64,000 nt of DNA from Clostridiales bacterium UBA4698 (GTDB lineage: Bacteria > Bacillota > Clostridia > TANB77 > UBA1234). The DNA is taken from assembly GCA_002404755.1 (NCBI GenBank), contig DHKI01000007.1:79-64078 (forward strand). Reading direction: 5' to 3'. The position numbers and the translations under genes were made by a program. How positions within the stretch are numbered: position 1 is the stretch's first letter; each line of letters opens with the position of its first letter. The notes under the pieces are model-generated. The model was given only the letters and a program-made list of their open reading frames with translations. It searched no databases and had not been told where the DNA came from. Below, one piece after another: positions 15,941 to 64,000 of this stretch.

Positions 15941-16064
15941 TAAAAATATTATAGGTATTCAAAATTTAGATAATCAAGAAAATCCGAAATTGATTGATGA
16001 AAAATAAGCATATAATGAATGCAAAAGATGTAGTTGAAAGCAATCATGGTAAGGAAGTGAAAAA

Positions 16065-16331
16065 ATGTTTAAATTGCATTCAAGTTTTGAGCCAACAGGC
16101 GACCAGCCACAGGCTATTGATAAATTAGTTGAAGGAATAAATAAGGGCGATAAATATCAAACGCTTTTAGGTGTTACAGGTTCAGGTAAAACATTTACCA
16201 TGGCGAATATTATTCAAAAGGTTCAAAAGCCAACACTTATATTAGCACATAATAAGACATTAGCCGGACAGTTGTATAGCGAGTTTAAAGAATTCTTCCC
16301 GGAGAATGCTGTTGAATATTTTGTATCTTAG
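16065..16331 (+). pseudogene. uvrB: Displaced 5' fragment of uvrB (88 codons)
   Basis: [28 protein letters not shown]...[13 protein letters not shown]...NAVEYFVS then stop. It is a paralogous, ~80% identical copy of the start of the full uvrB at 62232. Similarity ends abruptly after TATTTTGT (16317-16324). Confidence 0.85.
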
Positions 16332-31111: not shown

Positions 31112-31963
31112 ATGGAGAAACTATTAACGAATTTAATAGCTACGATTATTGGCTCGGTTGATAATTCTATAAATACTGTGTTTGGTGGACTAATAGATAT
31201 GTGCTTTAATTCTGAAAATTATATTTCTCAAATATTAGGGAATGAAGTAATGAATTTTGATGGGTTAAGAACAATTATTTTATCATTTGCAATAGCACTA
31301 ATTATATTGAAGTTTCTGAAGAAAGGTTTTGATACATACATTATGTGGGTTGAGGGCGATAATGATACTCCACCTATAACTTTTGTAACATATTTTGCAA
31401 GGGCTTTGGTAATGGCAGTATCATTTCCGATTTTGTATGATTGGCTAATAACAGTTGCTAAAGATTTAGGAAATCAAGTAATGGTTGCTTTGAATTTGGG
31501 AGAGCAATATTCATTGACAACTGCAATAGCAAGTTTGGCGATTATGAATATTTTTGCTGCAATAGTAGGCTTGATAATTATTATAATGTTATTCCTTTTA
31601 TATATTCAATTCATAATGCGTGGTGTAGAAATGCTAGTATTAAAGTTAGGTTTTCCACTTGCTTGTGTAGGACTAGTTGATTCTGATAAAGGAATATTTG
31701 CACCATATATGAAGAAGTTTTTTCAAAGTATAACAACAGTAATCGTACAAATTGCTTTAGCAAAATTAGCCATATTGCTTATAATGACTGGACAGATGAT
31801 ACAAGCAGTAGCAGTTTTATTAGTCGCATTAAGAACACCAAAATTCTTATCAGAATTTATGATAATAGCAAATAGTGGAGGAAGTGGAATTAGTACACTA
31901 GCTCATAATACAAGCCGAACAATAGAACTTGCAAGACATATAAAGAATTTTGCAGGTAGGTGA
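31112..31963 (+). CDS. Polytopic membrane protein, VirB6/TrbL-like
   Basis: Six or more predicted TM helices within T4SS gene context. Confidence 0.55.
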   Translation: MEKLLTNLIATIIGSVDNSINTVFGGLIDMCFNSENYISQILGNEVMNFDGLRTIILSFAIALIILKFLKKGFDTYIMWVEGDNDTPPITFVTYFARALVMAVSFPILYDWLITVAKDLGNQVMVALNLGEQYSLTTAIASLAIMNIFAAIVGLIIIIMLFLLYIQFIMRGVEMLVLKLGFPLACVGLVDSDKGIFAPYMKKFFQSITTVIVQIALAKLAILLIMTGQMIQAVAVLLVALRTPKFLSEFMIIANSGGSGISTLAHNTSRTIELARHIKNFAGR

Positions 31964-46654: not shown

Positions 46655-47506
46655 ATGAATGTAATAAAATCGTCAGAAATAATAAAGTACCAGTTTTATT
46701 CAATGCCTAAAGAATTATTTGCAGATAAATATAAAGATTTAAGTTTAGAAGCTAAAATGATATACACATTATTTATTGATAGATTAGAATTATCAAAGAA
46801 AAATAATTGGGTTAATGAAAATGGAGAAGTATATTTGATTTTTAAACGAAGTGAAATCGGTGGTAAATTAAACTTAACTGATAAAACAGTATCTAAAGCA
46901 ATAAAAGATTTAAAGAATTTTAATTTAATCTATGAACAAAGACAAGGATTGGGCAAAGCCAATTTGATATATATAGGAAAGTTAAATTTGGATAATCAAG
47001 ATACGGAAAAATCACCTTTCTTGAACGGTAAAATTTCCGATTCAAGACACGGAAAAAATCCGACTCAAGATACGGAAATTTTCCGACCAAGTAATACTAA
47101 TATAAATAATACTAATTTTAATGATACTGATGTCAGTCAGTCGGTAATAGATGAGGAGTTAGAAAGAATAAAGCAGAAGTGTGAATTGCACTTGCTAGAA
47201 GAAGTAGATAGCAGAGGTAATATAAACACAAAGTTGAGAGAAATAATAGAAAATGCAATCGAAATGATGTACTACTCATCATCTATAACTGTTGGTAATG
47301 CAGTAATACCACAGTATATCGTAAGAAGTAAAATGAAACAGTTAAATGGGGCAAAAATATTTTATGCGTTAGAAAAATTAAAAAATAATTTAAAAAACAC
47401 AGAAAATTTTTCAAATAGTTCAAAATATATAATAAGTTGCCTGTATAACGCAATAAATGAGTACTTTAGCGATGCAGAGATACAGTTTAGAATAGACACA
47501 AATTAA
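46655..47506 (+). CDS. Replication initiator, RepA_N family
   Basis: KYQFYSMPKELFADKYKDLSLEAKMIYTLFIDRLELSKKNNWVNENGEVYLIF is typical of the RepA_N N-terminal domain. Confidence 0.7.
   Translation: MNVIKSSEIIKYQFYSMPKELFADKYKDLSLEAKMIYTLFIDRLELSKKNNWVNENGEVYLIFKRSEIGGKLNLTDKTVSKAIKDLKNFNLIYEQRQGLGKANLIYIGKLNLDNQDTEKSPFLNGKISDSRHGKNPTQDTEIFRPSNTNINNTNFNDTDVSQSVIDEELERIKQKCELHLLEEVDSRGNINTKLREIIENAIEMMYYSSSITVGNAVIPQYIVRSKMKQLNGAKIFYALEKLKNNLKNTENFSNSSKYIISCLYNAINEYFSDAEIQFRIDTN
46996..47086. repeat. Four tandem ~22-bp iteron-like repeats inside the rep gene
   Basis: Units: TCAAGATACGGAAAAATCAC, CTTGAACGGTAAAATTTCCGA, TTCAAGACACGGAAAAAATCCGA and CTCAAGATACGGAAATTTTCCGA. The last contains the palindrome CGGAAA-T-TTTCCG. 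Confidence 0.6.
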
Positions 47507-47584
47507 CTTCAATGCATTGAAGTAACTGGGGTGGACTTCTCTTTTAATACTACCTTATAATTTGCTTATAAGGAGGTATTAAAA

Positions 47585-47869: not shown

Positions 47870-47988
47870 TAAATAGGCGAATAATGTAAAAAGACAACTT
47901 CAATTTGTTGAATTAAAAAGCCCAATATGGTATAATAGTTCTGATAGTATAAAATTATCGGAAGTTATATTATCTTGGGGGTGGTAGT

Positions 47989-50298
47989 ATGGAAAACTAT
48001 TATGAATTATCTGAAGAAGATACAAGAGCCAAATTCATAGATGGAAGTCTGAAAGCTAAATGGGCTGAAAGTCAAATAAGAAGAGAAACACCATTTACTG
48101 ATGGAAGAATAACAGTAAGAGGTAAAATGGTGTCAAGAGGGACTAGAAAAAGAACAGACTATATTTTATATAATAAATCTAATAGTCCTTTAGCGATAGT
48201 GGAAGCAAAGAAATACAGTGAACCTGTTGGTAAAGGTATGCAACAGGCGATAGAGTATGCCCAAATACTTGATATACCATTTGCTTATTCTACTAACGGT
48301 AGGGGATTTTTAGAGCATAATATGCTTACTGGAGAAGAAAGAGAGTTCTCAATGGGTGAGTTCCCAACCCCAGAAGAATTATGGGACAGATACAAAAATG
48401 CAAAAAGTATTTCCGAAACAGAAGAACAAATAATAAATGAGCCATATTATTATCAAGCAGGAGAAAAACACCCAAGATATTATCAGCGAATTGCAATAAA
48501 TAGAACTGTTGAAGCAGTAGCTAAAGGTAAAAATAGGATTTTATTAGTAATGGCAACAGGTACAGGAAAAACATATACTGCGTTCCAGATTATATATAGA
48601 CTTTGGAAATCTGGAAAAAAGAAAAAAATATTATATTTGGCAGATAGAAATGTCTTGATAGACCAAACAATGTCGCAAGACTTTCAACCATTTTCTAAAG
48701 TAATGACCAAAATTGAACACAAGAAAATGGATAGTTCTTATGAAATATATATGGCGTTGTATCAGCAATTAATAGATGGTAATGGAAATGATGTATTTAA
48801 AGAATTTGATAAAGATTTCTTTGACCTAATTATTGTTGACGAATGTCATAGAGGTAGTGCTGCTGAAGATTCAAATTGGAGAAGAATTTTAGAATATTTT
48901 GAAAGTGCTACACAAATTGGTTTAACTGCTACTCCAAAGGAAACAAAAGAAGTATCAAATATTTCATACTTTGGAGAGCCAATATATACATATAGCTTGA
49001 AACAGGGAATTGATGATGGATTTTTAGCACCATATAAAGTTATAAGAGTAAATTTAGATAAAGATTTACTAGGCTACATTCCAGAAGCAGGAAAGTTAGA
49101 TATGTACGGCAATGAGATTGAGCAAAGAGAATATAACACAAAAGATTTTGATAAAAATATAATTATTGATGATAGAACTAAAAAAGTTGCAGAACAAATT
49201 ACTGAAATTTTAAAAGAAAATGATAGATTTGCAAAGACTATTGTATTCTGTGTGGACATTGAACACGCAGAAAGAATGCGTCAAGCATTGGTAAATGAAA
49301 ATGCCGATTTAGTAAAAGAAGATCCAAGATATATAATGAGAATTACTGGAGATAACAATGAGGGAAAAGCACAATTAGACAATTTTATTGATGTTGAAAG
49401 CAAGTATCCTACTATTGTTACTACATCGAAATTAATGACAACAGGTGTTGACTGTAAAACTTGTAAATACATTGTAATTGATTCTTTAATAGCGAGTATG
49501 ACAGAGTTTAAACAAATAATAGGTCGTGGTACTAGAATTAGAGAAGATTATGGAAAATCATATTTCACAATAGTAGATTTTAGGAATGTAACTCGACTTT
49601 TCCAAGACAAAGACTTTGATGGAGAGCCGGTTGTAGTAGAAGATTTCCCAAAACCTAAAGGTACTGGAGATGATACTGAAAATGGTAATAGTGGAGGAGA
49701 TGGAACAACACCAGTTGATCCACCTATTGAGCCAAAGACACAAAAATACAGAGTTAATGATGTAGAAGTAGAAATAATCAATAAAATGGTACAGTATTAT
49801 GGGAAAGATGGAAAGCTTACAACAGAGTCTTTGGTTGATTTCTCAAAAAGAAGTATTTTGAATGAATATGCTGATTTGAATACATTTATTAATAGATGGA
49901 ATAGTGAAGAAAAGAAACAAGCTATAATTGATGAATTAAAGGAACACGGAATATTATTAGAAGCATTAAGAGAAGAAGTGGGTAAAAAAGATATAAGCGA
50001 CTTTGATTTAATACTTCATATTGCTTATGATAAAAAACCATTAACCAAAGCAGAAAGAGCAAATAAAGTAATGAAAAAAGGTTATTTGTATAAATATTCT
50101 GAACAAGCACAACTTGTATTATCAATGTTGTTACAAAAATATCAAGATAGTGAAATATTAGATTTATCTGATACGAGAGTTTTACAACTTCGTCCATTTG
50201 ATGGGTTAGGTGGACCTCTAAAAATTGTAAAATTATTTGGAGGAAAAGAAGAATATGTGAAAGCTGTGGAAGAATTAGAAAATGAATTATATGCGTAA
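47989..50298 (+). CDS. hsdR: Type I restriction enzyme R subunit
   Basis: N-terminal PD-(D/E)xK (DYILY...AIVEAKK), helicase motif I MATGTGKT, motif II DECHRG and motif VI QIIGRGTR. Confidence 0.9.
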   Translation: MENYYELSEEDTRAKFIDGSLKAKWAESQIRRETPFTDGRITVRGKMVSRGTRKRTDYILYNKSNSPLAIVEAKKYSEPVGKGMQQAIEYAQILDIPFAYSTNGRGFLEHNMLTGEEREFSMGEFPTPEELWDRYKNAKSISETEEQIINEPYYYQAGEKHPRYYQRIAINRTVEAVAKGKNRILLVMATGTGKTYTAFQIIYRLWKSGKKKKILYLADRNVLIDQTMSQDFQPFSKVMTKIEHKKMDSSYEIYMALYQQLIDGNGNDVFKEFDKDFFDLIIVDECHRGSAAEDSNWRRILEYFESATQIGLTATPKETKEVSNISYFGEPIYTYSLKQGIDDGFLAPYKVIRVNLDKDLLGYIPEAGKLDMYGNEIEQREYNTKDFDKNIIIDDRTKKVAEQITEILKENDRFAKTIVFCVDIEHAERMRQALVNENADLVKEDPRYIMRITGDNNEGKAQLDNFIDVESKYPTIVTTSKLMTTGVDCKTCKYIVIDSLIASMTEFKQIIGRGTRIREDYGKSYFTIVDFRNVTRLFQDKDFDGEPVVVEDFPKPKGTGDDTENGNSGGDGTTPVDPPIEPKTQKYRVNDVEVEIINKMVQYYGKDGKLTTESLVDFSKRSILNEYADLNTFINRWNSEEKKQAIIDELKEHGILLEALREEVGKKDISDFDLILHIAYDKKPLTKAERANKVMKKGYLYKYSEQAQLVLSMLLQKYQDSEILDLSDTRVLQLRPFDGLGGPLKIVKLFGGKEEYVKAVEELENELYA

Positions 50299-50313
50299 GA
50301 TAAGGAGATAGAA

Positions 50314-51798
50314 ATGGGTATTGGAAATGTAATAAAAAGATTAAGAGATATAATGTGGAAAGATGATGGAGTCAATGGAGATGCACAAAGAATAGAGCAA
50401 ATTGTATGGATTTTATTTTTGAAAGTTTATGATGCACAAGAACAACAATGGGAACTAGATGAAGATAATTATGAGTCAATAATTCCAGAAGAATTAAGAT
50501 GGAGAAATTGGGCAGTAGATTTAAAAGACGGTAAAGCATTAACTTCTGAAGCTTTGTTAGATTTTGTAAATAATAAGTTGTTTCCAACCTTAAAGAAATT
50601 AGATGTAAATGAAGAAACACCAAAGAAAAAAGCAATAGTAAAATTTATATTTGAAGATATTAACAACTATATGAAAAATGGGATTTTGTTAAGACAAGTA
50701 ATTAATACTATTGACGAAATTGACTTTACAGACACAAATGAAAAACACGAATTTAATGAAATATATGAAACGATGTTAAAAGAATTGCAAAGTGCAGGTA
50801 GTGCAGGAGAATTCTATACACCAAGACCAGTAACAAACTTTATGGTTGAAATGGTTAGTCCAACTTTAGATGATAGAATTGCAGACTTTGCTTGTGGTAC
50901 AGGTGGTTTCTTAACTTCTGCTTTAGATTTCCTAGATAAACAAGTAGATAATTTAGAAGATAGAAAGAAATATAATAATTCTATATATGGAATTGAAAAG
51001 AAATCACTACCATACTTACTTTGCGTTACTAATATGCTATTTCATAATATTGAAGAGCCTAATATTGAACATAAAAATAGCTTAAGTAAGAATGTTAGAG
51101 ATTATTCCATTGATGAAAAATATGATGTTATAATAATGAATCCACCTTATGGTGGCTCTGAATTAAAAAATATTCAAGCTAATTTTCCAATGGAATTAAG
51201 AGGCTCTGAAACTGCTGATTTATTTATGACACTTATTTTATATCGTTTAAGAAATAATGGTAGAGTAGCAGTTATCTTACCAGATGGATTTTTATTTGGT
51301 ACAGATAATACAAAAACAAATATTAAAAAGAAAATATTAGAAGAATGTAATTTACATACAATAGTTAGAATGCCTAGTAGTGTATTTGCACCATATACTT
51401 CTATAACAACTAATATTCTTTTCTTTGATAAAACAAAGAAAACTGATGAGGTATGGTTTTATAGAATGGATATGCCAGAAGGATATAAGAATTTCTCAAA
51501 AACGAAACCTATAAAGAATGAACACTTTGATAAAGTAAGAGAATGGTGGAACAATAGAGTAGAAATCAAAGATGAAAAAGAAGATGAAAGTTCTACTGAA
51601 ACGTATAAATCTAAAAAATATACTGCTGAAGAAATTGTTAATTTGAATTATAACTTGGATTTGTGTGGTTATCCACATAAAGAAGAAATAATATTAGAGC
51701 CAAAAGAACTTATAAGCCAATATCAAGAAAAAAGAGCGAACTTAAATGCAGAGATTGATAAAATTTTAGATGAAATAAGTAAAATGTTGGAGGAATAA
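50314..51798 (+). CDS. hsdM: Type I R-M N6-adenine DNA methyltransferase subunit
   Basis: Motif I DFACGTGGFL and motif IV NPPYGG. Confidence 0.9.
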   Translation: MGIGNVIKRLRDIMWKDDGVNGDAQRIEQIVWILFLKVYDAQEQQWELDEDNYESIIPEELRWRNWAVDLKDGKALTSEALLDFVNNKLFPTLKKLDVNEETPKKKAIVKFIFEDINNYMKNGILLRQVINTIDEIDFTDTNEKHEFNEIYETMLKELQSAGSAGEFYTPRPVTNFMVEMVSPTLDDRIADFACGTGGFLTSALDFLDKQVDNLEDRKKYNNSIYGIEKKSLPYLLCVTNMLFHNIEEPNIEHKNSLSKNVRDYSIDEKYDVIIMNPPYGGSELKNIQANFPMELRGSETADLFMTLILYRLRNNGRVAVILPDGFLFGTDNTKTNIKKKILEECNLHTIVRMPSSVFAPYTSITTNILFFDKTKKTDEVWFYRMDMPEGYKNFSKTKPIKNEHFDKVREWWNNRVEIKDEKEDESSTETYKSKKYTAEEIVNLNYNLDLCGYPHKEEIILEPKELISQYQEKRANLNAEIDKILDEISKMLEE

Positions 51799-51799
51799 A

Positions 51800-53380
51800 A
51801 TGACTGCACAAGAATTAAAAAATTCTATTCTTCAACTAGCTATACAAGGCAAGTTAGTTCCACAAGATCCAAATGATGAACCTGCAACTGTGTTGCTAGA
51901 GAAGATAAAAGAAGAAAGAAATAAGTTAATAAAAGAAAAAAAGATAAAAAAAGAAAAATATTCTGAAATATATAAAGATGAAACCGATAATCATTATTAT
52001 GAGAAGTTTGAAGATGGGACCGTAAATGATATTACTGAAGAGATACCGTTTGATATACCTGATAATTGGAAATGGGTACATTTTGAAAATTTAGGATATT
52101 TCATTTCAGGTTATACCCCAAAAAGAGAAGAAATATCATCCAATGGTAATATACCATATTTTAAAGTTTCAGATATGAATACCAATGGTAATGAGATCTA
52201 TTTAATATATACAGATAATTATTTATGTACTAACAAGTATTATCCAAAAAACACTATTGTTTATCCTAAAAATGGCGGAGCTGTTTTTACTAACAAACGA
52301 AGAATATTAAAATATGATTCTGTCGTGGATTTGAATACAGGTGGTTTTTGTTGCTATAGTTTTGCTTATCTAAATTTTATGTTCTTATTATTCAGCAACA
52401 TTGATTTTAGACAATATTATAAAGGAACAGCATTGCCTACTTTGGATATGGATAAAATAAAAAGAATATATATTCCATTTCCACCACTTAATGAACAAGA
52501 GAGAATAAAAAATAAAATAGAAATACTAAATCCAATTATAAACTTATATGATTCAAAATATAATGAAATCGAAGCTTTAAATACCTCTTATAAAGAAGAA
52601 CTAAAGAAATCAATATTGCAATATGCTATTCAAGGAAAATTAGTAAAACGAGATCCTAATGATGAACCGGCAGAAGTTTTGATTAATAAAATTCTTGAAG
52701 AAAAAAGAGAGTTAATAAAAACAAAGCAAATTAAAAAAGAGAATTTGTCTGTAATATATAAAGATAGTACAGATAATCAATTTTATGAGAAGTTTGATGA
52801 TGATACGATTGTCAATATTACAGATGAAATTCCTTTTGATATACCAAGCAATTGGTGTTGGACAAAATTAAGAAATATCGGCGTATATAAAAAAGGTCCA
52901 TTTGGTAGTGCATTAACAAAAAGTATGTTTGTACCTAAATCTAATGAAACAATAAAAGTTTATGAACAAAAAAATGCAATTCAGAAAAACGCTACTTTAG
53001 GAGAATATTATATAACAAAAGATTATTTTGAAAGGAGTCTGACAGGATTTGAAATTTTTCCAAATGATATAATTGTTAGTTGTGCTGGTACAATTGGAGA
53101 GACTTATGTTATGCCTAATGAAATGGAAAGAGGAATAATAAATCAGGCATTAATGCGAATGAGAATATTAGAATTATTTCCTAAAGATTACTTTTTATTA
53201 TATTTTGATTATGTATTAAAAAAATCATCTGCCAAAAAAAGTAGTGGTTCCGCAATTAAAAATATTCCACCATTTGACATTTTCAAAGAATTCCTTGTAG
53301 CAGTACCACCAATAGCAGAGCAAAAACGTATTTTAGGAAAGTTGAATATAATGTTTAATATTATCAAAACAGCTGAATAA
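51800..53380 (+). CDS. hsdS: Type I R-M specificity subunit (expressed copy), arranged CR-TRD1-CR-TRD2
   Basis: Two variable target-recognition regions separated by duplicated conserved regions (LQxAIQGKLV..DPNDEPA...IPFDIP.NW.W). Start overlaps the hsdM stop. Confidence 0.9.
   Translation: MTAQELKNSILQLAIQGKLVPQDPNDEPATVLLEKIKEERNKLIKEKKIKKEKYSEIYKDETDNHYYEKFEDGTVNDITEEIPFDIPDNWKWVHFENLGYFISGYTPKREEISSNGNIPYFKVSDMNTNGNEIYLIYTDNYLCTNKYYPKNTIVYPKNGGAVFTNKRRILKYDSVVDLNTGGFCCYSFAYLNFMFLLFSNIDFRQYYKGTALPTLDMDKIKRIYIPFPPLNEQERIKNKIEILNPIINLYDSKYNEIEALNTSYKEELKKSILQYAIQGKLVKRDPNDEPAEVLINKILEEKRELIKTKQIKKENLSVIYKDSTDNQFYEKFDDDTIVNITDEIPFDIPSNWCWTKLRNIGVYKKGPFGSALTKSMFVPKSNETIKVYEQKNAIQKNATLGEYYITKDYFERSLTGFEIFPNDIIVSCAGTIGETYVMPNEMERGIINQALMRMRILELFPKDYFLLYFDYVLKKSSAKKSSGSAIKNIPPFDIFKEFLVAVPPIAEQKRILGKLNIMFNIIKTAE
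51983..52020. repeat. Inverted repeat IR1, left copy (38 bp, exact)
   Basis: ACCGATAATCATTATTATGAGAAGTTTGAAGATGGGAC is the exact reverse complement of 55624-55661. Confidence 0.9.
52651..52746. repeat. Inverted repeat IR2, left copy (96 bp, 2 mismatches)
   Basis: Reverse complement of 54871-54966, with mismatches at 52667 and 52706. Lies in the central conserved region of hsdS. Confidence 0.9.
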
Positions 53381-53395
53381 TCAGCTGTTTTTTGG

Positions 53396-54199
53396 CTACC
53401 AATCAATTATTTTATTTACTATTTCTTGCTGTTCGGTGCTAGTTCTTCTTAAATAAATTCTAGTAGTTTCTATACTTTCGTGTCCCATTAAATCAGCTAG
53501 TAACGAAATGTCATTGAATCTTTCTAAAAAGCTTTTAGCAAATCGATGTCTAAATGAATGAGGGTAAATCACGTTAGGATTTAATCCATATTTTTTCCCT
53601 AGTTTTTTTAGTTCTCCTGCAATTCCCCTTGCAGTAATTCTTTTTCCAAATTTGTTTTTAAATATGAACCCATCTGTAATTTCCTTTTCTTCAAACCATT
53701 TCAATGCTTCTTCTTGAAGTTTTTGTGGAATATATATTCTTCTTAATTTTCCACCTTTTGAATATAAATCAAAATATCCAATTTTCACATGTTCTACTTT
53801 GAATTGTATTAACTCGCTAATTCTAGCACCTGTTGCAGTAATAAATCTTATAACAAAATACCAGTACATTTCCTTCTCATTTTTCAAACATTTCTTAAAA
53901 TATTCATAATCAGCTTCGCTAATTACATTTTCTAAAAAATTTTTTTGTTGTAATTTTAAAAGCGGTAATCTCAATTTATCTTTTTTTAAATATTTTAAGT
54001 AAGAATTTATTGCTTGAATTCTTAAATTTACAGTTTTTATCTTATAATTTTCAACAAGAAATGTTTTATAAGCTTGTAAATTTTTCTTGTTTAAAATCAA
54101 ATATTTTGATTGGTATTGTTTAACTGCAAACAGATAAGATTTTATGGTATTTTGAGAAAGATTTTTCTTTTTTAAGTATTCTTCAAAAGAAAAAACCAT
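53396..54199 (-). CDS. Tyrosine site-specific recombinase (XerC/D-like) located between the hsdS copies
   Basis: ATGARISE (Arg), HSFRHRF (HxxR) and GHESIETTRIY (His...Tyr) catalytic signature. 267 aa. Confidence 0.85.
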   Translation of the reverse strand: MVFSFEEYLKKKNLSQNTIKSYLFAVKQYQSKYLILNKKNLQAYKTFLVENYKIKTVNLRIQAINSYLKYLKKDKLRLPLLKLQQKNFLENVISEADYEYFKKCLKNEKEMYWYFVIRFITATGARISELIQFKVEHVKIGYFDLYSKGGKLRRIYIPQKLQEEALKWFEEKEITDGFIFKNKFGKRITARGIAGELKKLGKKYGLNPNVIYPHSFRHRFAKSFLERFNDISLLADLMGHESIETTRIYLRRTSTEQQEIVNKIIDW

Positions 54200-54870
54200 A
54201 CTGAAAACCTCCTTTCCAGTATGGAATTATATAATATTATAGTTTATCAAATAAAATTTCTAATCTTTCTGTGATTTGTATTTGCTCATTAATAGGTGGA
54301 AGTGGAATTAATATATTCAAGACTGTATCAGAGCCTATATTACCTTGATTAGCAGTTCCTGTTTCTTTTGAAAAGACTTGATCCAATACAAATTTTGATT
54401 TTAATATCTTTATTAAAAAAGAAACCTCAATACTTTTATTGTTCCTAAAAGCACCTACCCTTTGATTAAGATATAAATTATAATTTACCAAATCATCTTC
54501 TTTAACAAGCTTCGAGAAAAAGTAATCTCTTTTATTTTTTGTGCCTGTCATCGTTATTAATATATCATTCATTTTTATTAAGTATTTTTCTGTTTCACTC
54601 GCTAAATCATCATTTATATATACAGGATTTGCTTCATACAAAATTTTATCATTTTTTACATTTCCCAAGCGTATAATTAAATTTGAGGATTTACTTATAT
54701 AAGTAGTACTTTTGTATGCATATCCACCTAATAGAGTACCTACATTTTTCAATCTAGTCCAACACCAACTATCTGGTATTTCAAAAGGAATTTCATCTGT
54801 AATATTGATAATCGTACCATCATCGAACTTCTCATAAAATTGATTATCAGCATCTTTATAGATGATAGAT

Positions 54871-54966
54871 AAATTCTCTTTTTTAATTTGCTTTGTTTTT
54901 ATTAACTCTCGTTTTTCTTCAAGAATTTTATTAATCAAAACTTCTGCCGATTCATCATTAGGATCT
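54871..54966. repeat. Inverted repeat IR2, right copy
   Basis: See 52651-52746. Confidence 0.9.
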
Positions 54967-55623
54967 TGTTTTACTAGCTTACCTTGTATTGCATATTGTA
55001 AAATAGATTTTTTTAACTCTTCTTTATAAGAAGAATTTAAAAATTCAATTTCATTATATTTTTTATGATATATATTTATAATAGATTCTAATGAATCAAT
55101 TTTGTTTTTTATACGATGTTGTTCTTTTAATGGTGGTAATGGAATTAAATATTTTTTAACATTATCTAGTTTAAGAAACATTTGATTAGTAGAACCTTCA
55201 GCACTTTTTTCTATTTGAAGTCTATTTAATTTTAAATAATATAATAAATAATAAGATATTACTTCATTTATGTTCCTAAAAACAAATAAGTGGCCATCTG
55301 TAATATATTTATTATCTTCTAAATTAAAGATTCCAGATCTTCCAACAGTACCACCACCAAGAGTATTTAATAGAACATCATTTTTCTTTAAATAAAATTC
55401 TTGTGGATAATTTGCACTAAAATCATCAGTGCAATATTTAATTCCGTTTAAATCAATTCCATAATCTTGATTATTTCTTTGACCTAACACCAAGTTATTA
55501 TTAAGCGCTTTTGAGTATTTAGGACTTTTCCCAGAAAATGCAAACAAACAAATATTTTCTAATCTTGCCCAACACCAATTACTTGGAATCTCAAAAGGAA
55601 TTTCATCCGTAATATCATTAATA

Positions 55624-55661
55624 GTCCCATCTTCAAACTTCTCATAATAATGATTATCGGT
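55624..55661. repeat. Inverted repeat IR1, right copy
   Basis: See 51983-52020. Confidence 0.9.
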
Positions 55662-55710
55662 GGTTAAATATAAAAAATACACGATTATTGAAATCGTGTA
55701 CTTACTTTTA

Positions 55711-55947
55711 TTAGTCAGCTTCAACATCCTTAAATAACGGATGAGTAAAGAACTCTCCGAGAGTGATTCCAAATCCCTCACAGATATGAATCAAAGTATC
55801 TAGTTTGATTAATGAAGTCTTTCCATTCATAAAGGTTGTAATTGTTGAACAAGGAACACCAGTTTCTTTGCACAAATCCCAGATTTTCCAACCTTTTTCT
55901 TTAAGTAAAATTGTAATTCTTTTTCTAATTGCTTCTGATAAATTCAT
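55711..55947 (-). CDS. XRE-family HTH transcriptional regulator
   Basis: 78 aa. LLKEKGWKIWDLCKETGVPCSTITTFMNGK is a classic Cro/C1-type HTH. Confidence 0.8.
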   Translation of the reverse strand: MNLSEAIRKRITILLKEKGWKIWDLCKETGVPCSTITTFMNGKTSLIKLDTLIHICEGFGITLGEFFTHPLFKDVEAD

Positions 55948-56007: not shown

Positions 56008-56066
56008 GTTGAAGTAAAACGAAAATATTTCGATTTATCGAAGTACTTCGTTGCGTTGAAGTAAAA
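56008..56066. promoter_or_regulatory. Divergent control region with operator-like repeats
   Basis: Direct repeat GTTGAAGTAAAA at 56008-56019 and 56055-56066, flanking the perfect 12-bp palindrome CGAAGTACTTCG (56039-56050). Confidence 0.4.
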
Positions 56067-56774: not shown

Positions 56775-57497
56775 TTATAAGAGCTTTTGTGCCTTTGCTT
56801 TGTATAAAGCTACTGTTATTACATATTTAGGTGGTGGCTTTTTACCATCATAGTATGGATACCATTTCTTTATATCTGCTGTTTTTGAATAACGATACAT
56901 TGATTTAATTGCTTTTTCTATATTCCATTTAGCATTTCTAACAGTAGTATGATTTTTCTTTGCAATATCTTCGTAGATTTTATTTATAGAAAATGCATTA
57001 ATGTTATTTTTATATAGATACTCAACAGTATCAATTATATATGTTGTTCCTATATTGGCAAAGTTAAAACCTAGTTGTAGTACTGCGTTTTCACACACTT
57101 CTCTACAACTAGGTTTTTTGTTCGTTACTTTATATATATTGTGAATGCAGTCAAGTAGAGTAGGTAAATCAAAAGGTTTTTCAAAAACTCGGAAAACTTT
57201 TGAAGTATATCTGAACTTGAAGTCTGCTAGATTTCCAGAAATGACAATGATGTTGCATTTTTGAGAGTCAGTTCCGTTTTGAGTGCATAAGGTATCCAGA
57301 ACTTGAATTCCATTCTTGTTTGGCATTTTTAAATCTAAAATCATAACATCTGGAGCGTAATTAAGATAGGAGTTTATTGCACTTTCTCCATCGTTAGCAA
57401 TATTAACAACTTTAATCGCATTATCTTTTGTAAGGTAAGATGATACAAGAGTAGCTAACTCTAAATTATCATCAGCAATTAAAACTGATATTGACAT
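56775..57497 (-). CDS. Orphan response regulator with a Spo0A-like C-terminal DNA-binding domain
   Basis: Receiver domain (LIADDN...VMILDLKMP). C-terminal YEDIAKKNHTTVRNAKWNIEKAIKSMY and KPPPKYVITVALYKA parallel Spo0A_C ([42 protein letters not shown]). No adjacent kinase gene. Confidence 0.7.
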   Translation of the reverse strand: MSISVLIADDNLELATLVSSYLTKDNAIKVVNIANDGESAINSYLNYAPDVMILDLKMPNKNGIQVLDTLCTQNGTDSQKCNIIVISGNLADFKFRYTSKVFRVFEKPFDLPTLLDCIHNIYKVTNKKPSCREVCENAVLQLGFNFANIGTTYIIDTVEYLYKNNINAFSINKIYEDIAKKNHTTVRNAKWNIEKAIKSMYRYSKTADIKKWYPYYDGKKPPPKYVITVALYKAKAQKLL

Positions 57498-59275: not shown

Positions 59276-59464
59276 ATGTCTGAAGAAACAAAAATTGTTT
59301 ATGAAGTTATAGATATAATGAATATCTTAAATATAGGAAGAAATAAAGCTTACAATCTCGTGAAAAAAACTTATGAAGATAAAGCACCATTTGTTGTTAT
59401 AAAGATAGGACAAGAATATAAAATTCCTAAAGAAAGTTTTATGAAGTGGTTACAGGGTGGATAA
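59276..59464 (+). CDS. xis: Excisionase-type HTH protein
   Basis: 62 aa. ILNIGRNKAYNLVKK...IKIGQEYKIPKESFMKWL fits the MerR/excisionase HTH_17 pattern. Directly upstream of the integrases. Confidence 0.7.
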   Translation: MSEETKIVYEVIDIMNILNIGRNKAYNLVKKTYEDKAPFVVIKIGQEYKIPKESFMKWLQGG

Positions 59465-59489: not shown

Positions 59490-60677
59490 ATGACAAATGA
59501 ATATAAAGGCGAAATTGCATATTTTTTGAAAAAAAGTTGGTATCATAACAAAAAGGAATTACAAGAAGATGGAACAATAAAATATGGTAGGGTTGGAGGT
59601 TTTAAGACTCCAGAGGAAGCAGAAAAAAGCTATTATGAGATGCAACAAGTTTTTGAGGAAAAAATGCGAAATCGTATAACTCCCACAATAAATAAAGAAA
59701 TAATGCTAAAAGATTACTTGATATATTGGTTTGAAAATATCTATTCTTCAAGAATAGAAAGCACAACTAAAATGCTTACTTCTTATACTTTATATAAAAT
59801 TATAATTCCTAATATTAAATATGATATAAAGTTAAGATTAATTACAACTGATTATTTGAATGAATTGCTAGAAGAATGTGCTAAATGTAGTAAATCGGCA
59901 GGAAATAAGTCAAGAGAAACATTGTTTTTAGCTTTTAAAGATGCAGTAAAAGATAAATATATAACAGTTAATTCGGTAATTACTACAAAACAATATAGAA
60001 GAGAAAAGTCAAATATAACAATATTAAAGAAAGAAGAGATTAAAAAGTTGCTTGATGCGACAAAAAATAGTAATTGGTATTTGGAAATTTTACTTGGATT
60101 GTTTTGTGGACTCCGTAAAGGCGAAATTTTAGGACTTAAATTTTCTGATTTTGATATTGAAAAAAGTACAGTAAGAATAAATAAGCAACTTGCTTTAGAA
60201 TATGAATTAGAACAAAAAGACTTTTTAATAAAGAATAGAGTTTTTAAAATTAAAGATCCAAAAACGGAAAATTCTTTTAGGACACTTAAAGTACCACAAA
60301 TAATAATTGATGAATTGATAAAAAGAAGAGAGAAAATAGAGGTATTGAAATCGAACAGAACAGATTTTATTGATAATGATTATATTAGCTGTCAAGAAGA
60401 TGGGTTACCACATCATCTTTCTTCTTTGAATAAATTTTTATCTAAAGTTTGTTCTAGAAATGGATTACCAAAAGCAACTGTACACGGATTAAGACATATG
60501 TATGCAACGATTTTGATAGAGCAGGGTGTTAGTATTGCAAAAATTTCTGCATTATTAGGACATAGTTCTATTCATACTACTTTTGATTTTTATTGTGATG
60601 TGATGTCAGAAAAAGAAAAAATGATTGCATATATGAATAATACATTTTGTATTAGTGAGGAGGAAGAACTAGAATGA
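59490..60677 (+). CDS. int: Tyrosine integrase 1 with an N-terminal arm-binding (AP2-like) domain
   Basis: GLRKGEILGL (Arg), HGLRHMYAT (HxxR) and LGHSSIHTTFDFY (His...Tyr). N-terminal GGFKTPEEAEKSYYEMQ. Confidence 0.85.
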   Translation: MTNEYKGEIAYFLKKSWYHNKKELQEDGTIKYGRVGGFKTPEEAEKSYYEMQQVFEEKMRNRITPTINKEIMLKDYLIYWFENIYSSRIESTTKMLTSYTLYKIIIPNIKYDIKLRLITTDYLNELLEECAKCSKSAGNKSRETLFLAFKDAVKDKYITVNSVITTKQYRREKSNITILKKEEIKKLLDATKNSNWYLEILLGLFCGLRKGEILGLKFSDFDIEKSTVRINKQLALEYELEQKDFLIKNRVFKIKDPKTENSFRTLKVPQIIIDELIKRREKIEVLKSNRTDFIDNDYISCQEDGLPHHLSSLNKFLSKVCSRNGLPKATVHGLRHMYATILIEQGVSIAKISALLGHSSIHTTFDFYCDVMSEKEKMIAYMNNTFCISEEEELE

Positions 60678-62186: not shown

Positions 62187-62231
62187 TGATGGTTAGATGT
62201 AATCATAATAAATAGGTAAGGAAGTGAAAAA

Positions 62232-64000
62232 ATGTTCAAATTGCATTCTGAATATAAACCAACTGGCGACCAACCACAAGCAATAGAAAAGCTAGTTGAG
62301 GGTATTAATAAAGGCTTGAAACACCAGACTTTACTGGGTGTTACGGGAAGTGGTAAAACTTTTACAATGGCTAATGTAATAGCAAAAGTAAATAAACCTA
62401 CTCTGGTTTTAGCACATAATAAAACATTAGCTGGACAATTATATAGCGAGTTCAAGCAGATGTTCCCAGAGAATGCAGTGGAGTATTTTGTGTCATATTA
62501 CGATTATTATCAACCAGAAGCCTATATGCCACAAACTGACACATATATAGAAAAAGACTCGGCAGTAAATGATGAGATAGACAAGCTTCGTCACTCTGCA
62601 ACAGCTGCACTTTTTGAGAGAAAAGATGTTATTATTGTTGCCAGTGTTTCTTGTATTTATGGTTTAGGTGACCCCGAAGATTATAGTGGTCTTACACTTT
62701 CTTTAAGACCGGGTATGCAAATGGAAAGAGATGATTTGCTTAGAGCACTTATAGATAGGCAATATGATAGAAATGAGATTGAATTTAAACGTGGTAAGTT
62801 TAGAGTTAGAGGGGATACAGTTGAAGTGTATCCATCTAATGAAAATGAAAAGGCAATTAGAATTGAATTTTTTGGAGATGAAATAGAAAAGATTTCTGAA
62901 ATACAACCGCTTACGGGTCAAAAATTAGGAGTTAGAAATCATGTGCTTATCTTTCCAAACTCACATTATGCAACATCTAAAGAAAAAATGGAAAAGGCAA
63001 TTGGCACAATTGAAATTGAGTTAGAGCAAAGAATTAAAGAATTTAAAGAAGAAGGAAAACTAATTGAGGCACAAAGAATAGAACAACGAACAAATTTTGA
63101 CATCGAGATGATGCGTGAAACAGGCTTTTGCCAAGGAATAGAAAACTATTCAAGACATATAAGTGGAAGAGAGCCAGGAAGTGCACCATACACACTTATG
63201 GATTATTTTCCAAAAGATTTTCTTTTGCTTATAGATGAATCACATGTTACAATTCCTCAAGTTAGAGCAATGTATAATGGAGATAGAGCTCGTAAAGAAA
63301 GTCTAGTTAATTATGGTTTTAGATTGCCCTCTGCTTACGATAACAGACCATTAAAATTTGAAGAATGGGAAGAAAGAATAAATCAAGTAATCTTTGTTAG
63401 TGCAACACCAGCAGATTATGAAAAGGCACACTCACAAAACACAGTAGAGCAAATCATAAGACCAACAGGACTTTTAGATCCTAAAATAGAAGTTAGACCA
63501 TCTGAAAATCAAGTTGATGATTTGATTGGAAGAATAAATGAAACAGTCGAAAAAGGTGAAAGAGTACTTGTTACTACACTTACAAAGAAAATGGCAGAAG
63601 ACCTAACAGCATATTTAAAAGAACTAAATATAAAAGTAACCTACATGCATTCAGATATTGACACACTAGAGAGACTAAAAATATTAAAAGAATTAAGAAT
63701 GGGTAAATATGATGTATTAGTTGGAATTAACCTATTAAGAGAAGGGCTAGATTTGCCAGAGGTTTCACTAGTTGCAATATTAGATGCAGACAAAGAGGGC
63801 TTTTTAAGATCTGAACGCTCGCTAATTCAAACAACAGGGCGTGCAGCAAGAAATTCAGAGGGAAAAGTTATAATGTATGCTGATGAATTAACAGATTCTA
63901 TGGAAAAAGCAATAAAAGAAACAAATAGAAGAAGAAAAATTCAAATGGCTTATAACGAAGAGCATGGAATAATTCCGCAAACTATTCATAAAGCAATAAG
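62232..64000 (+). CDS. uvrB: Excinuclease ABC subunit B (3' end beyond the window)
   Basis: [28 protein letters not shown]...[13 protein letters not shown]...[10 protein letters not shown]... The ORF stays open to the window end. Helicase motifs and the beta-hairpin region are present. Confidence 0.95.

What the first reader, a model, noticed from the sequence alone, without database searches (positions are those of the whole stretch)
47989..55781. ICE-borne Type I R-M system with an invertible hsdS shufflon (predicted four specificities)
hsdR-hsdM-hsdS (plus strand) is followed by a tyrosine recombinase on the minus strand (53396-54199). After that comes a second hsdS on the minus strand that lacks a start, an RBS and the N-terminal conserved region. 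The two hsdS copies share exact or near-exact inverted repeats at the two conserved regions: IR1 of 38 bp (51983-52020 versus 55624-55661) and IR2 of 96 bp with 2 mismatches (52651-52746 versus 54871-54966). All four target-recognition domains differ. Inversion at IR1 would swap both TRDs and inversion at IR2 would swap TRD2 only, giving four HsdS alleles. This is the architecture of known phase-variable Type I systems in Mycoplasma pulmonis, Streptococcus pneumoniae (ivr locus) and Bacteroides. Here it is cargo on a conjugative element, so the methylome/defence switch is horizontally mobile.
Basis: partly seen in the sequence, partly recalled or inferred. Interest (0 to 1): 0.7.

Follow-up and report, generated by a model that had tools for sequence, protein, structure and literature searches.

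The report
Invertible Type I restriction specificity switch on an ICE

Summary
hsdR, hsdM and hsdS lie on the plus strand, followed by a tyrosine recombinase and an N-terminally truncated hsdS' on the minus strand. IR1 is 38/38 exact and IR2 is 94/96. I also found a third repeat, IR3 (23- and 28-bp exact runs). The four TRDs share only 16-30% identity.

The recombinase is 55% identical to annotated PsrA and keeps all catalytic residues. The IR1/IR3 core, TTATGAGAAGTT, matches inversion sites mapped experimentally in Treponema denticola and Streptococcus agalactiae.

Contigs from other metagenome assemblies carry the same DNA, 100% identical segment by segment, in two other arrangements. Three of the four predicted states were seen. 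Junctions fall exactly at IR1 and inside IR2/IR3.

The locus lies inside a ~46 kb ICE inserted in the 5' end of uvrB.

It is not a new kind. Thousands of hsdS invertons are catalogued, including plasmid- and prophage-borne ones, and a 63%-identical recombinase sits in the same layout on the conjugative plasmid pRUMAL02. Switching within one clone and the methylation motifs remain untested. Verdict: new member of a known kind, modest interest.

The parts
47908..47936 (+). Promoter-like site upstream of hsdR (TTGAAT-17-TATAAT with TG). It overlaps a variant of the palindromic motif at 47896-47916.
   Evidence: Consensus scan and repeat family D3. This is a consensus match only.
47989..50298 (+). 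hsdR, 769 aa, EcoAI/FtnUII (type IB-like) family
   Evidence: Pfam HSDR_N_2, ResIII, Helicase_C and EcoEI_R_C. NCBIfam NF046051, 1152 bits, end-to-end match.
50314..51798 (+). hsdM, 494 aa
   Evidence: Pfam HsdM_N plus N6_Mtase, E = 1e-70.
51800..53380 (+). Expressed hsdS, 526 aa. The ATG lies 1 nt after the hsdM stop. Layout: N-terminal conserved region 51800-51982, TRD1 52079-52480, central conserved region plus linker 52481-52864, TRD2 52865-53305.
51983..52020 (+). IR1, left arm (38 bp, exact). It contains the core GATAATCATTATTATGAGAAGTT.
   Evidence: Recombinant junctions lie exactly at its edges in L002, L003, L008, L009, L012, L013 and L016-L018.
52651..52746 (+). IR2, left arm (94/96; exact runs of 16, 38 and 40 nt)
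   Evidence: The crossover in the silent copy of L002 maps to 52707-52746.
52772..52881 (+). IR3, left arm (87%; exact runs of 23 and 28 nt). It is a paralogue of IR1, with core GATAATCAATTTTATGAGAAGTT.
   Evidence: Complementary crossovers in L004 and L005, which come from different assemblies, both map to 52772-52794.
53366..53392 (.). Bidirectional terminator-like hairpin between the hsdS stop and the recombinase stop. It lies inside the invertible segment and travels with TRD2.
   Evidence: Fold: -13.9 kcal/mol on + and -16.2 kcal/mol on -, z about -4.5.
53396..54199 (-). PsrA-family tyrosine invertase, 267 aa, inside the invertible segment
   Evidence: PF00589. R126, K151, H214, R217, H240 and Y249 are present. 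55% identity to annotated PsrA and 63% to the pRUMAL02 recombinase.
54196..54224 (-). Hairpin enclosing the recombinase Shine-Dalgarno sequence and AUG, followed by a U-run and preceded by a conserved TATAAT
   Evidence: -16.3 kcal/mol, z = -3.0. Conserved in relatives, with one compensatory pair.
54240..55661 (-). Silent hsdS', lacking the N-terminal conserved region. Layout: TRD2' 54300-54755, central conserved region 54756-55136 (IR3' 54739-54848, IR2' 54871-54966), TRD1' 55137-55565, IR1' 55624-55661.
55675..55703 (-). Terminator-like hairpin after the HTH gene, immediately upstream of the silent hsdS'
   Evidence: Fold -13.2 kcal/mol, z = -4.75.
55711..55947 (-). XRE-type HTH gene (78 aa) flanking the silent copy. 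Its role is unknown.
   Evidence: Pfam HTH_26. It stays adjacent to the silent locus in every contig that carries it.
16048..16331 (+). Left ICE junction: a truncated 5' copy of uvrB (88-aa ORF at 16065-16331)
   Evidence: 22-bp exact direct repeat, and about 80% homology to 62215-62497.
62215..62497 (+). Right ICE junction: the start of full-length uvrB (649 aa), just after the two integrase genes (59490-61972)

Best explanation
This is a PsrA-type hsdS inverton, that is, a phase-variable Type I R-M system, carried as cargo on a ~46 kb ICE integrated in the 5' end of uvrB.

Only the hsdS copy joined to hsdM and to the 61-residue N-terminal conserved region is expressed. The second copy has no N-terminal region and sits behind a terminator, so it serves only as a reservoir of two further TRDs.

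The locus-encoded tyrosine recombinase pairs inverted repeats that lie in the hsdS conserved regions.
- Exchange at IR1 flips 52021-55623 and swaps both TRDs.
- Exchange in the central repeats (IR2 or IR3) flips the segment carrying TRD2, the recombinase gene and TRD2', and swaps TRD2 only.
- Together these give four HsdS alleles: T1+T2, T1'+T2', T1'+T2 and T1+T2'.
- Each allele is expected to direct HsdM and HsdR to a different bipartite target.

Shown: the anatomy; an intact invertase related to PsrA; the ICE context; and three of the four arrangements in nature, with junctions at the repeats.

Inferred: that the recombinase catalyses the exchanges; that switching occurs within clones; that the alleles have different specificities; and that the hairpin over the recombinase start keeps switching rare.
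For: Anatomy and domains.

Recombinase:
- The catalytic residues R, K, H-x-x-R, H and Y are all present.
- It is 55% identical over 99% of its length to a protein annotated 'tyrosine-type DNA invertase PsrA'.
- It is 63% identical to the recombinase of the R. albus pRUMAL02 locus, which has the same gene order.

Rearranged copies:
- Contigs that carry the exact recombinase, HsdM or HTH protein come from other assemblies and are made of segments 100% identical to the window, in different order.
- L003 is a pure IR1 inversion with 1 mismatch in 3300 nt, and ends in 17 nt of the silent-side flank.
- L002, L004, L005 and L008 show T1' in the expressed gene with T2, and T1 with T2' in the silent copy.
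- The recombinant IR1 junctions 'N-terminus | IR1 | T1'' and 'flank | IR1 | T1' occur in 9 contigs, exactly at the 38-bp edges.
- IR1 is shorter than the assemblers' k, so reads must span these junctions.

Central crossovers map to 52707-52746 and 52772-52794. The two products in 52772-52794 are complementary, and come from different assemblies.

Hints of mixtures within a sample: L010 stops at 52020 and L014 at 55624, the exact inner edges of IR1.

The core GATAATCA(T/A)T(A/T)TTATGAGAAGTT:
- It is present in IR1 and IR3, and in the repeats of relatives whose recombinase is at least 86% identical, in all that have hsdS on both sides.
- It overlaps experimentally mapped inversion repeats: T. 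denticola TTGTTATTATGAGAAGTT and S. agalactiae GAAACCTTATGAGAAGTT (PMC7672463).
- All four copies use the minority codons GAG and AAG, which make up about 20% and 23% of Glu and Lys codons.

In relatives the recombinase has hsdS on both sides wherever the contig extends far enough, and its orientation relative to hsdM varies, as expected for a gene inside an invertible segment.
Against: - No read-level data were available. All alternative arrangements come from different assemblies, some of which may be re-assemblies of the same reads. Switching within a clone is therefore not demonstrated.
- The fourth state (T1+T2') was not found, and predicted full-length alleles of three states — T1'+T2', T1+T2' and a second T1'+T2 junction variant — are not in the protein collection; the T1'+T2 allele itself is present as P0002.
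- Central crossovers are spread over at least two intervals, with gene-conversion-like patches (for example site 52706). A single fixed tyrosine-recombinase core would not produce that pattern, so homologous recombination probably contributes.
- In pneumococcus, inversions at the long repeats persist without PsrA (PMC7096588, PMC6620402).
- Nothing is known about methylation or restriction activity here.
Confidence: 0.8

Rival explanations
1. The rearrangements come from general (RecA-type) homologous recombination and gene conversion between the repeated conserved regions. The adjacent recombinase is not needed, or serves another purpose.
For: Central crossovers fall in different intervals, and the repeats show mosaic patches: site 52706 is the active-copy allele in both L002 copies, and sites 52747-52771 are the silent-copy allele in both. 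PsrA-independent inversion at long repeats is documented in S. pneumoniae and E. coli (PMC7096588; PMC6620402).
Against: Exchange at the 38-bp IR1 is the commonest event seen, in 9 contigs. The recombinase is intact and is conserved between hsdS copies in the relatives with hsdS flanks. The IR1/IR3 core matches experimentally mapped invertase sites and is kept with rare codons. In pneumococcus the short IR1 inversion depends strictly on PsrA (PMC7096588).
Confidence: 0.1
2. The arrangements are fixed differences between strains, old rearrangements that no longer switch. Each strain then has one stable specificity.
For: Each arrangement comes from a different assembly. The window's 128-kb contig runs through the locus without a break. 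No same-sample pair of alternative junctions was recovered.
Against: All segments, including hsdM, the TRDs and the flanks, are 100% identical between arrangements. Rearrangement has therefore outpaced point mutation. Several contigs end exactly at repeat edges, as happens at assembly-graph branches. The recombinase is intact.
Confidence: 0.12
3. The second hsdS is not silent. It is expressed on its own as a truncated specificity subunit, so two specificities coexist in one cell.
For: Gene callers predict a 481-aa product, and an in-frame GTG ORF exists.
Against: The candidate starts lie inside the HTH gene or its terminator hairpin, and I saw no Shine-Dalgarno-like sequence upstream of the repeat (by eye). 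The 61-residue N-terminal conserved region that each expressed relative carries is missing.
Confidence: 0.04

Closest known systems
Streptococcus pneumoniae SpnD39III / cod / ivr locus with invertase PsrA (CreX, IvrR)
   Same: Same logic: hsdR-hsdM-hsdS, silent hsdS copies in inverted orientation, and a locus-encoded tyrosine invertase. The inverted repeats lie in the 5' and central conserved regions of hsdS, and only the copy co-transcribed with hsdM is functional (PMC7096588). The recombinase is 55% identical to an annotated streptococcal PsrA.
   Different: Pneumococcus has two silent copies, three repeat pairs (15, 298 and 85 bp) and six alleles, on the chromosome. This locus has one full-length silent copy, repeats of 38 bp, about 96 bp and 23-28 bp, four predicted alleles, and sits on an ICE.
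Ruminococcus albus 7 plasmid pRUMAL02 Type I inverton (NC_014825.1)
   Same: Same gene order: hsdR, hsdM, hsdS, recombinase, inverted hsdS'. The recombinase is 63% identical and the repeats contain a similar core. The plasmid is typed as conjugative (MOBP, MPF_T). Huang et al. 2020 cite it as a plasmid-borne inverton.
   Different: It sits on a 353-kb plasmid rather than an integrated ICE. It has an extra hsdS fragment and different TRDs.
Streptococcus suis SsuCC20p four-way switch
   Same: Two hsdS genes of two TRDs each, a locus-encoded recombinase and four alleles. It is located on a mobile region (a prophage region) and was acquired horizontally (PMC10790761; PMC7394358).
   Different: Prophage context rather than ICE. 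Sequence relationship was not tested here. Inversion of the recombinase gene itself was not seen in S. suis assemblies, whereas here and in relatives its orientation varies.
Treponema denticola and Streptococcus agalactiae (Sag515I) invertons (Huang et al. 2020, PMC7672463)
   Same: Their experimentally mapped inversion repeats, TTGTTATTATGAGAAGTT and GAAACCTTATGAGAAGTT, share the TTATGAGAAGTT core with IR1 and IR3 of this locus.
   Different: Different phylum or class, shorter repeats (14-27 bp), and different numbers of silent cassettes.
Chromosomal relatives in uncultured Clostridia/Clostridiales MAGs (e.g. MBE5820721.1; loci L019-L025, L029-L037)
   Same: Recombinase 87-97% identical, HsdM about 75% identical, the same HsdS scaffold and the same repeat core.
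   Different: No gene of this ICE was found within 7-8 kb of them. L019-L025 sit among other defence genes (AAA_15/21 ATPase, GmrSD, DUF4011 helicase) and have only a half-size, one-TRD silent cassette.
Mycoplasma pulmonis hsd loci and the Bacteroides fragilis phase-variable Type I system; the R64 pilV shufflon
   Same: Same principle: recombinase-driven inversions reassort variable gene segments.
   Different: According to Huang et al., the M. pulmonis and B. fragilis invertases belong to other clades with only marginal homology to PsrA. The R64 shufflon in the strict sense (Rci, sfx sites, pilV) is a different system, so 'shufflon' applies here only as an analogy. Neither comparison was tested by sequence here.

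Membership tests
Type I restriction-modification system (EcoAI / type IB-like) | HsdR with an N-terminal nuclease region, an SF2 helicase motor and a C-terminal domain | tested here: met
   Pfam HSDR_N_2, ResIII, Helicase_C and EcoEI_R_C. NCBIfam NF046051, 1152 bits against a cut-off of 550, covering residues 7-769 on model positions 1-768.
Type I restriction-modification system (EcoAI / type IB-like) | HsdM N6-adenine methyltransferase, and an HsdS with two TRDs separated by conserved regions | tested here: met
   N6_Mtase E = 1e-70 plus HsdM_N. HsdS has two Methylase_S stretches.
Type I restriction-modification system (EcoAI / type IB-like) | Methylation and ATP-dependent restriction at a bipartite target | not testable with these tools
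   Needs methylome data or biochemistry.
hsdS inverton / phase-variable Type I R-M (PsrA type) | At least two hsdS copies in inverted orientation, only one linked to hsdM and able to be expressed | tested here: met
   The silent copy starts at the equivalent of residue 61 and lies behind a terminator hairpin.
hsdS inverton / phase-variable Type I R-M (PsrA type) | Inverted repeats inside the conserved hsdS regions, flanking distinct TRDs | tested here: met
   IR1 is 38/38, IR2 is 94/96, IR3 has 23- and 28-nt exact runs. Shuffles never exceeded 22 nt. TRDs share 16-30% identity.
hsdS inverton / phase-variable Type I R-M (PsrA type) | Locus-encoded site-specific recombinase with intact catalytic residues, related to PsrA | tested here: met
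   PF00589. R126, K151, H214, R217, H240 and Y249 present. 55% identity over 99% of its length to annotated PsrA. NCBIfam has no dedicated PsrA model; the best hits are Xer models, all below their cut-offs.
hsdS inverton / phase-variable Type I R-M (PsrA type) | Alternative DNA configurations exist, with junctions at the repeats | tested here: met
   Three of four configurations occur in public assemblies, built from identical segments. This is evidence between samples only.
hsdS inverton / phase-variable Type I R-M (PsrA type) | Reversible switching within a clonal population | tested here: inconclusive
   Contigs L010 and L014 end exactly at the IR1 inner edges, which suggests assembly-graph branches. 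No reads were available, and no same-sample pair of alternative junctions was found.
hsdS inverton / phase-variable Type I R-M (PsrA type) | Each allele gives a different methylation motif | not testable with these tools
   Needs SMRT or nanopore motif calling on phase-locked strains.
Integrative and conjugative element | Conjugation module: relaxase, type IV coupling protein, VirB4-like ATPase and mating-pair formation proteins | tested here: met
   Relaxase 27593-28504, T4SS-DNA_transf 28867-30735, TrbL_4 31112-31963, TraG P-loop ATPase 35446-37281, M23 peptidase, sortase plus SpaA adhesin.
Integrative and conjugative element | Integrase at one end, and integration in the chromosome with a duplicated target | tested here: met
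   Two tyrosine integrases at 59490-61972 and a possible excisionase-like gene (weak HTH_17 hit) at 59276-59464. The uvrB 5' end is duplicated at 16048-16331 and 62215-62497. Chromosomal genes lie on both sides.
Integrative and conjugative element | Excision and transfer, or empty target sites in related genomes | tested here: inconclusive
   All contigs that reach the left junction carry the ICE. No empty site was found. Transfer cannot be tested here.

The most novel reading that the evidence does not exclude
The inverton may be wired into the ICE's own biology rather than being passive cargo.

- The hsd operon promoter overlaps a variant of a palindromic motif (ACTTCAATGCATTGAAGT) that also precedes neighbouring ICE genes and brackets the cassette.
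- The invertase start is locked in a conserved hairpin.

If these are regulatory, specificity switching and restriction would be coupled to ICE activation or establishment. Sibling hosts would then split into mutually restricting methylome classes that gate further ICE and phage traffic.

Separately, the TTATGAGAAGTT core, kept with rare codons from Treponema and Streptococcus to Clostridia, could be a universal PsrA-family crossover site embedded in the HsdS linker.
Probability: 0.1. Interest if true: 0.55.

Novelty: new member of a known kind. Interest (0 to 1): 0.3.

Why it matters
It adds an ICE-borne example, from uncultured gut-type Clostridia, to the catalogue of invertible Type I specificity switches. 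It also shows that the flipped forms can be recovered from ordinary metagenome assemblies.

For annotation, three points follow. The minus-strand hsdS is a silent cassette, not a gene. The 267-aa 'integrase' is an invertase, not the ICE integrase. Assemblies will break or differ at this locus.

Biologically, one conjugative element can deliver a defence and methylation system whose specificity varies between the assemblies examined and may vary among cells of a recipient lineage. The principle is already established for plasmid- and prophage-borne systems.

Tried and rejected
- A megablast of the whole locus against PLSDB plasmids gave no match.
- An exact scan of the metagenome-contig collection for the 40-nt IR2 run gave nothing.
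- A second scan with the 30-nt IR1 core found 16 related loci but not this element. Pairs of contigs from the same sample or sister samples (Ga0247611, UMJJ01, Ga0256404/06, JAEEG*) gave no same-sample alternative junctions. They were different strains or simply broke at IR1.
- I built the predicted full-length alleles (T1'+T2', two junction variants of T1+T2', and a second junction variant of T1'+T2). None is in the protein collection as an exact sequence.
- I searched for an empty uvrB site, or for ICE variants without the R-M cassette, using neighbouring proteins (RepA_N, the Spo0A-like protein, KilA-N, DUF2442). Only the same arrangement or short contigs came back, and KilA-N was not on record with my start codon.
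- I considered whether the rearranged contigs are assembly chimeras and rejected it for IR1, because 38 bp is below the assemblers' k. For the central repeats, the L002 mosaic needs at least three switches and L004/L005 are complementary, which single mis-joins would not produce.
- I considered genetic code 4, because some relatives are labelled Tenericutes or Bacilli. I rejected it: all long ORFs are intact under table 11, and HsdR matches its model end to end.
- SPAdes coverage values are too low (2-6x) to read isoform fractions from them.
- I did not identify the host beyond 'low-GC Clostridia-like'. The evidence is the tyrS T-box, a Spo0A-like regulator, a sortase, 29% G+C, and closest relatives in Clostridia/Clostridiales MAGs.

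Full report
**1. The observation**

- hsdR, 47989-50298 (+), 769 aa. It carries HSDR_N_2, ResIII, Helicase_C and EcoEI_R_C, and matches the NCBIfam EcoAI/FtnUII HsdR model end to end (1152 bits, cut-off 550).
- hsdM, 50314-51798 (+), HsdM_N plus N6_Mtase.
- hsdS, 51800-53380 (+), 526 aa, two Methylase_S stretches. Its start lies one base after the hsdM stop.
- A 267-aa phage-integrase-family protein, 53396-54199 (-).
- A second hsdS at about 54240-55661 (-).

IR1 (51983-52020 vs 55624-55661) is 38/38 identical. IR2 (52651-52746 vs 54871-54966) is 94/96.

Homology runs over 315 nt at 83%. After a 3-nt indel it continues as IR3 (52772-52881 vs 54739-54848, 87%), which has exact runs of 23 and 28 nt.

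The longest exact inverted matches are 40, 38 and 38 nt. In 100 dinucleotide shuffles the longest match averaged 15.6 and never exceeded 22.

The four TRDs are 16-30% identical to one another.

The minus-strand copy aligns with the expressed gene only from residue 61. In-frame upstream codons run into the terminator hairpin of the neighbouring HTH gene (55675-55703; -13.2 kcal/mol, z = -4.75) and then into that gene itself. It is a truncated copy with no upstream promoter-like site in the scan, and most likely silent, even though ORF finders and the metagenome gene caller give it a start.

**2. The recombinase**

Alignment to solved Xer-type recombinases shows the full catalytic set: R126, K151, H214, R217, H240 and Y249.

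tblastn against plasmids gave 20 hits, each covering at least 97% of the protein.
- 63% identity to the recombinase of Ruminococcus albus 7 pRUMAL02.
- 61% to a set of Enterococcus faecalis plasmids.
- About 59% to Mycoplasmopsis records.
- 55% to a Streptococcus dysgalactiae protein annotated 'tyrosine-type DNA invertase PsrA'.

The pRUMAL02 locus has the same order: hsdR, hsdM, hsdS, recombinase, inverted hsdS. It sits on a plasmid typed as conjugative.

The recombinase's 90%-identity cluster has 96 members.

In GTDB genomes and in metagenomes, relatives at 86-97% identity have hsdS on both sides wherever the contig reaches far enough. Two (L035, L040) show no hsdS match. The recombinase lies on the same strand as hsdM in some (L029, L030, L063) and on the opposite strand in others (L032, L033, L064). 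That is expected for a gene inside an invertible segment.

**3. Direct evidence that the segments move**

I looked up contigs that encode exactly the window's recombinase, HsdM or the 78-aa HTH protein and aligned them to the window.

The window is bases 175-64174 of ENA contig ERZ27300238 k119_257985. The contigs from other assemblies consist of segments 100% identical to the window, in a different order. I label the arrangements as follows.

| State | Expressed gene | Silent copy | Where seen |
|---|---|---|---|
| A | T1+T2 | T1'+T2' | the window |
| C | T1'+T2' | T1+T2 | L003, L009 |
| B | T1'+T2 | T1+T2' | L002 with L012; L004, L008, L013; L005 |
| D | T1+T2' | T1'+T2 | not found |

- L003 (ERZ808241) matches 55282 to 51983 with one mismatch in 3300 nt, and then continues with 17 nt of the silent-side flank (55662-55678). 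That is exactly the product of inversion at IR1. L009, from the same assembly, shows hsdM, the N-terminal region and IR1, followed by T1'-specific bases.
- L002 is a 6.1-kb contig spanning the whole locus (ERZ808243). L004, L008 and L013 are from ERZ27300200, and L005 is from ERZ27300195. State B is the product of IR1 plus a central inversion.
- L016, L017 and L018, from three further assemblies, join the silent flank to T1.

Altogether nine contigs carry recombinant IR1 junctions, and the switch occurs exactly at the edges of the 38-bp repeat. IR1 is shorter than the assemblers' k (55 for SPAdes as I understand its default, 119 for MEGAHIT from the contig names). These junctions therefore need reads that span them and cannot be assembly chimeras.

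**4. Where the central exchanges occur**

I scored the sites that distinguish the two central conserved regions.
- The silent copy of L002 switches between 52706 and 52747, inside the 40-nt exact run of IR2.
- The silent copy of L004 and the expressed copy of L005 both switch between 52771 and 52795, inside the 23-nt run of IR3, in complementary directions. They come from different assemblies.
- The expressed copy of L002 is a mosaic: silent-type up to 52667, active-type at 52706, silent-type at 52747-52771, and active-type from 52795.

This mosaic needs several exchanges or a gene conversion. It is not what a single mis-join would give.

So at least two central intervals are used. The pattern suggests that general recombination or gene conversion acts on the long repeat alongside site-specific exchange. 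This matches pneumococcus, where the short IR1 depends strictly on PsrA while the longer repeats still invert at low rate without it (PMC7096588; PMC6620402).

**5. The likely crossover core**

IR1 and IR3 are paralogues. The N-terminal linker and the central linker of HsdS both encode (T)DN(H/Q)(Y/F)YEKF, and they share GATAATCA(T/A)T(A/T)TTATGAGAAGTT.

The same core lies in the inverted repeats of close relatives, in all that have hsdS on both sides. Recognisable variants occur in the R. albus and S. dysgalactiae loci and in a Flavobacteriaceae MAG (L039).

Huang et al. 2020 mapped inversion repeats by PCR and sequencing. They found TTGTTATTATGAGAAGTT and ATAATTGTTATTAT in Treponema denticola, and GAAACCTTATGAGAAGTT in Streptococcus agalactiae (PMC7672463). 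These overlap the core found here.

In this 29% G+C sequence, GAG makes up 19.5% of Glu codons and AAG 22.7% of Lys codons. All four copies nevertheless use GAG-AAG. The copies are paralogues, so this is only suggestive of selection at the DNA level.

Short cross-matches also exist between IR3 of the expressed gene and IR1' of the silent gene (15 and 17 nt). Aberrant products, such as three-TRD genes, cannot be excluded. None was seen.

**6. Hints of mixtures within a sample**

L010 (MEGAHIT) ends at 52020 and L014 (SPAdes) ends at 55624. These are the exact inner edges of IR1. L003 ends 38+17 = 55 nt from the start of IR1. This is how contigs end at graph branches.

Coverage is only 2-6x, however, and I had no reads. 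I rate within-population switching as likely, not shown.

ERZ808243 and ERZ27300200 break at the same two positions (52087 and 52099). They may be re-assemblies of the same data, so the number of independent samples is uncertain.

**7. Context**

Left of about 16 kb lie chromosomal genes: a tyrS T-box leader (3-185), tyrS and a copper ATPase.

From 17 kb to 47 kb lie the ICE genes.
- A 2134-aa protein with a weak ArdC-N match and an SNF2 helicase region.
- ParB.
- A MobA/VirD2-type relaxase.
- A type IV coupling protein.
- TrbL_4.
- A VirB4-like ATPase.
- An M23 peptidase.
- A sortase with a 1318-aa SpaA-repeat adhesin.
- RepA_N.

After the R-M locus come a Spo0A-like regulator, a possible excisionase-like gene (62 aa, weak HTH_17 hit) and two tyrosine integrases (59490-61972).

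Full-length uvrB starts at 62232, and a truncated 88-aa copy of its 5' end sits at 16065-16331. The two copies are about 80% identical over 16048-16331 and 62215-62497, and begin with a 22-bp exact repeat. Ordinary chromosomal genes follow uvrB.

The element is therefore a ~46 kb ICE inserted in the 5' end of uvrB, and the R-M locus lies inside it. Close chromosomal relatives of the locus are not on this ICE. L019-L025 sit among other defence genes and have only a one-TRD silent cassette.

**8. How it most likely works**

Transcription starts at a promoter-like site upstream of hsdR (47908-47936) and runs through hsdR, hsdM and the hsdS copy fused to the N-terminal conserved region.

A hairpin (53366-53392) follows TRD2. 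It would stop transcription when TRD2 occupies the expressed site.

The silent copy is shielded by the HTH-gene terminator.

The recombinase start codon and Shine-Dalgarno sequence are enclosed in a hairpin (54196-54224; -16.3 kcal/mol, z = -3.0). A U-run follows it and a conserved TATAAT precedes it. The hairpin is kept in relatives, with one clearly compensatory pair (CG, AU, UG). My inference is that it limits invertase synthesis and so keeps switching rare.

Inversion at IR1 exchanges both TRDs. Inversion at IR2 or IR3 exchanges TRD2 and flips the recombinase gene. The predicted products are 526 aa (T1+T2), 534-535 aa (T1'+T2), 535 aa (T1'+T2') and 526-527 aa (T1+T2').

That each product recognises a different bipartite target follows from established knowledge of Type I HsdS subunits. 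It was not tested here.

**9. Comparison with what is known, and novelty**

This is the architecture of the pneumococcal SpnD39III/cod locus and of the four-way S. suis SsuCC20p switch. Systematic surveys found thousands of such loci across phyla (PMC7672463, PMC7394358, PMC9881135).
- 61 of 3292 multi-hsdS loci in REBASE were plasmid-borne, pRUMAL02 among them.
- SsuCC20p lies on a prophage region.

In the held library I found no explicit description of an ICE-borne inverton. That is a small extension of carriage on a conjugative plasmid.

The finding is real and well interpreted, but it is a new member of a known kind. I set interest at 0.3.

Noticed in passing
window 16048-16331 and 62215-62497: The ICE is inserted in the 5' end of uvrB. 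A truncated 88-aa uvrB copy sits at the left junction, and the intact 649-aa gene starts just after the integrases at the right junction. The two copies are about 80% identical and begin with a 22-bp exact repeat (GGTAAGGAAGTGAAAAAATGTT). This is consistent with (but does not show) an element that carries a replacement 5' end for its target gene.
   Followed up: partly
window 54196-54224 (- strand); also L019, L029-L034, L036, L037: The recombinase Shine-Dalgarno sequence and AUG are enclosed in a 12-bp hairpin followed by a U-run, with a conserved TATAAT a few bases upstream. The hairpin is conserved in relatives and has one compensatory pair (CG, AU, UG). It may limit invertase synthesis.
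   Followed up: partly
window 47505-47525, 47896-47916, 56044-56064: A palindromic motif, ACTTCAATGCATTGAAGT, occurs before a small ICE gene. Degenerate variants occur just upstream of hsdR (overlapping its promoter-like site) and just beyond the HTH gene, so the motif brackets the whole R-M cassette. 3 matches were found where 0.02 are expected by chance. The genes that follow at 47585 and 56121 share a similar first 14 codons. It could be an operator, or a scar from cassette insertion.
   Followed up: partly
window 17222-23626: A 2134-aa ICE protein with a weak N-terminal match to ArdC-N (24.6 bits, no stretch significant on its own) and an SNF2/ResIII helicase region. It could be an anti-restriction function carried on the same element as a restriction system.
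   Followed up: no
window 52667-52795; loci L002, L004, L005: The two central repeats carry different mosaics of the same polymorphisms in different assemblies. For example, site 52706 is exchanged independently of its neighbours. This looks like repeated gene conversion between the expressed and silent copies.
   Followed up: partly
L012/L013 end at window 52087; L002/L004 start at window 52099: Contigs from two different assemblies, made with different assemblers, break at the same two positions and leave an 11-nt gap. This is unexplained. The assemblies may derive from the same reads, or there may be a local polymorphism.
   Followed up: no
window 56775-57497 (- strand): A Spo0A-like response regulator (receiver domain plus Spo0A_C) is encoded inside the ICE, between the R-M cassette and the integrases.
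   Followed up: no
window 3-185: A T-box leader (Rfam RF00230, 95.7 bits) lies upstream of tyrS. It is ordinary chromosomal context.
   Followed up: yes
L019-L025 (relatives of the locus): A chromosomal relative with a recombinase more than 90% identical has only a one-TRD silent cassette (149 aa). It sits among other defence-type genes: an AAA_15/21 ATPase, GmrSD and a DUF4011 helicase.
   Followed up: partly
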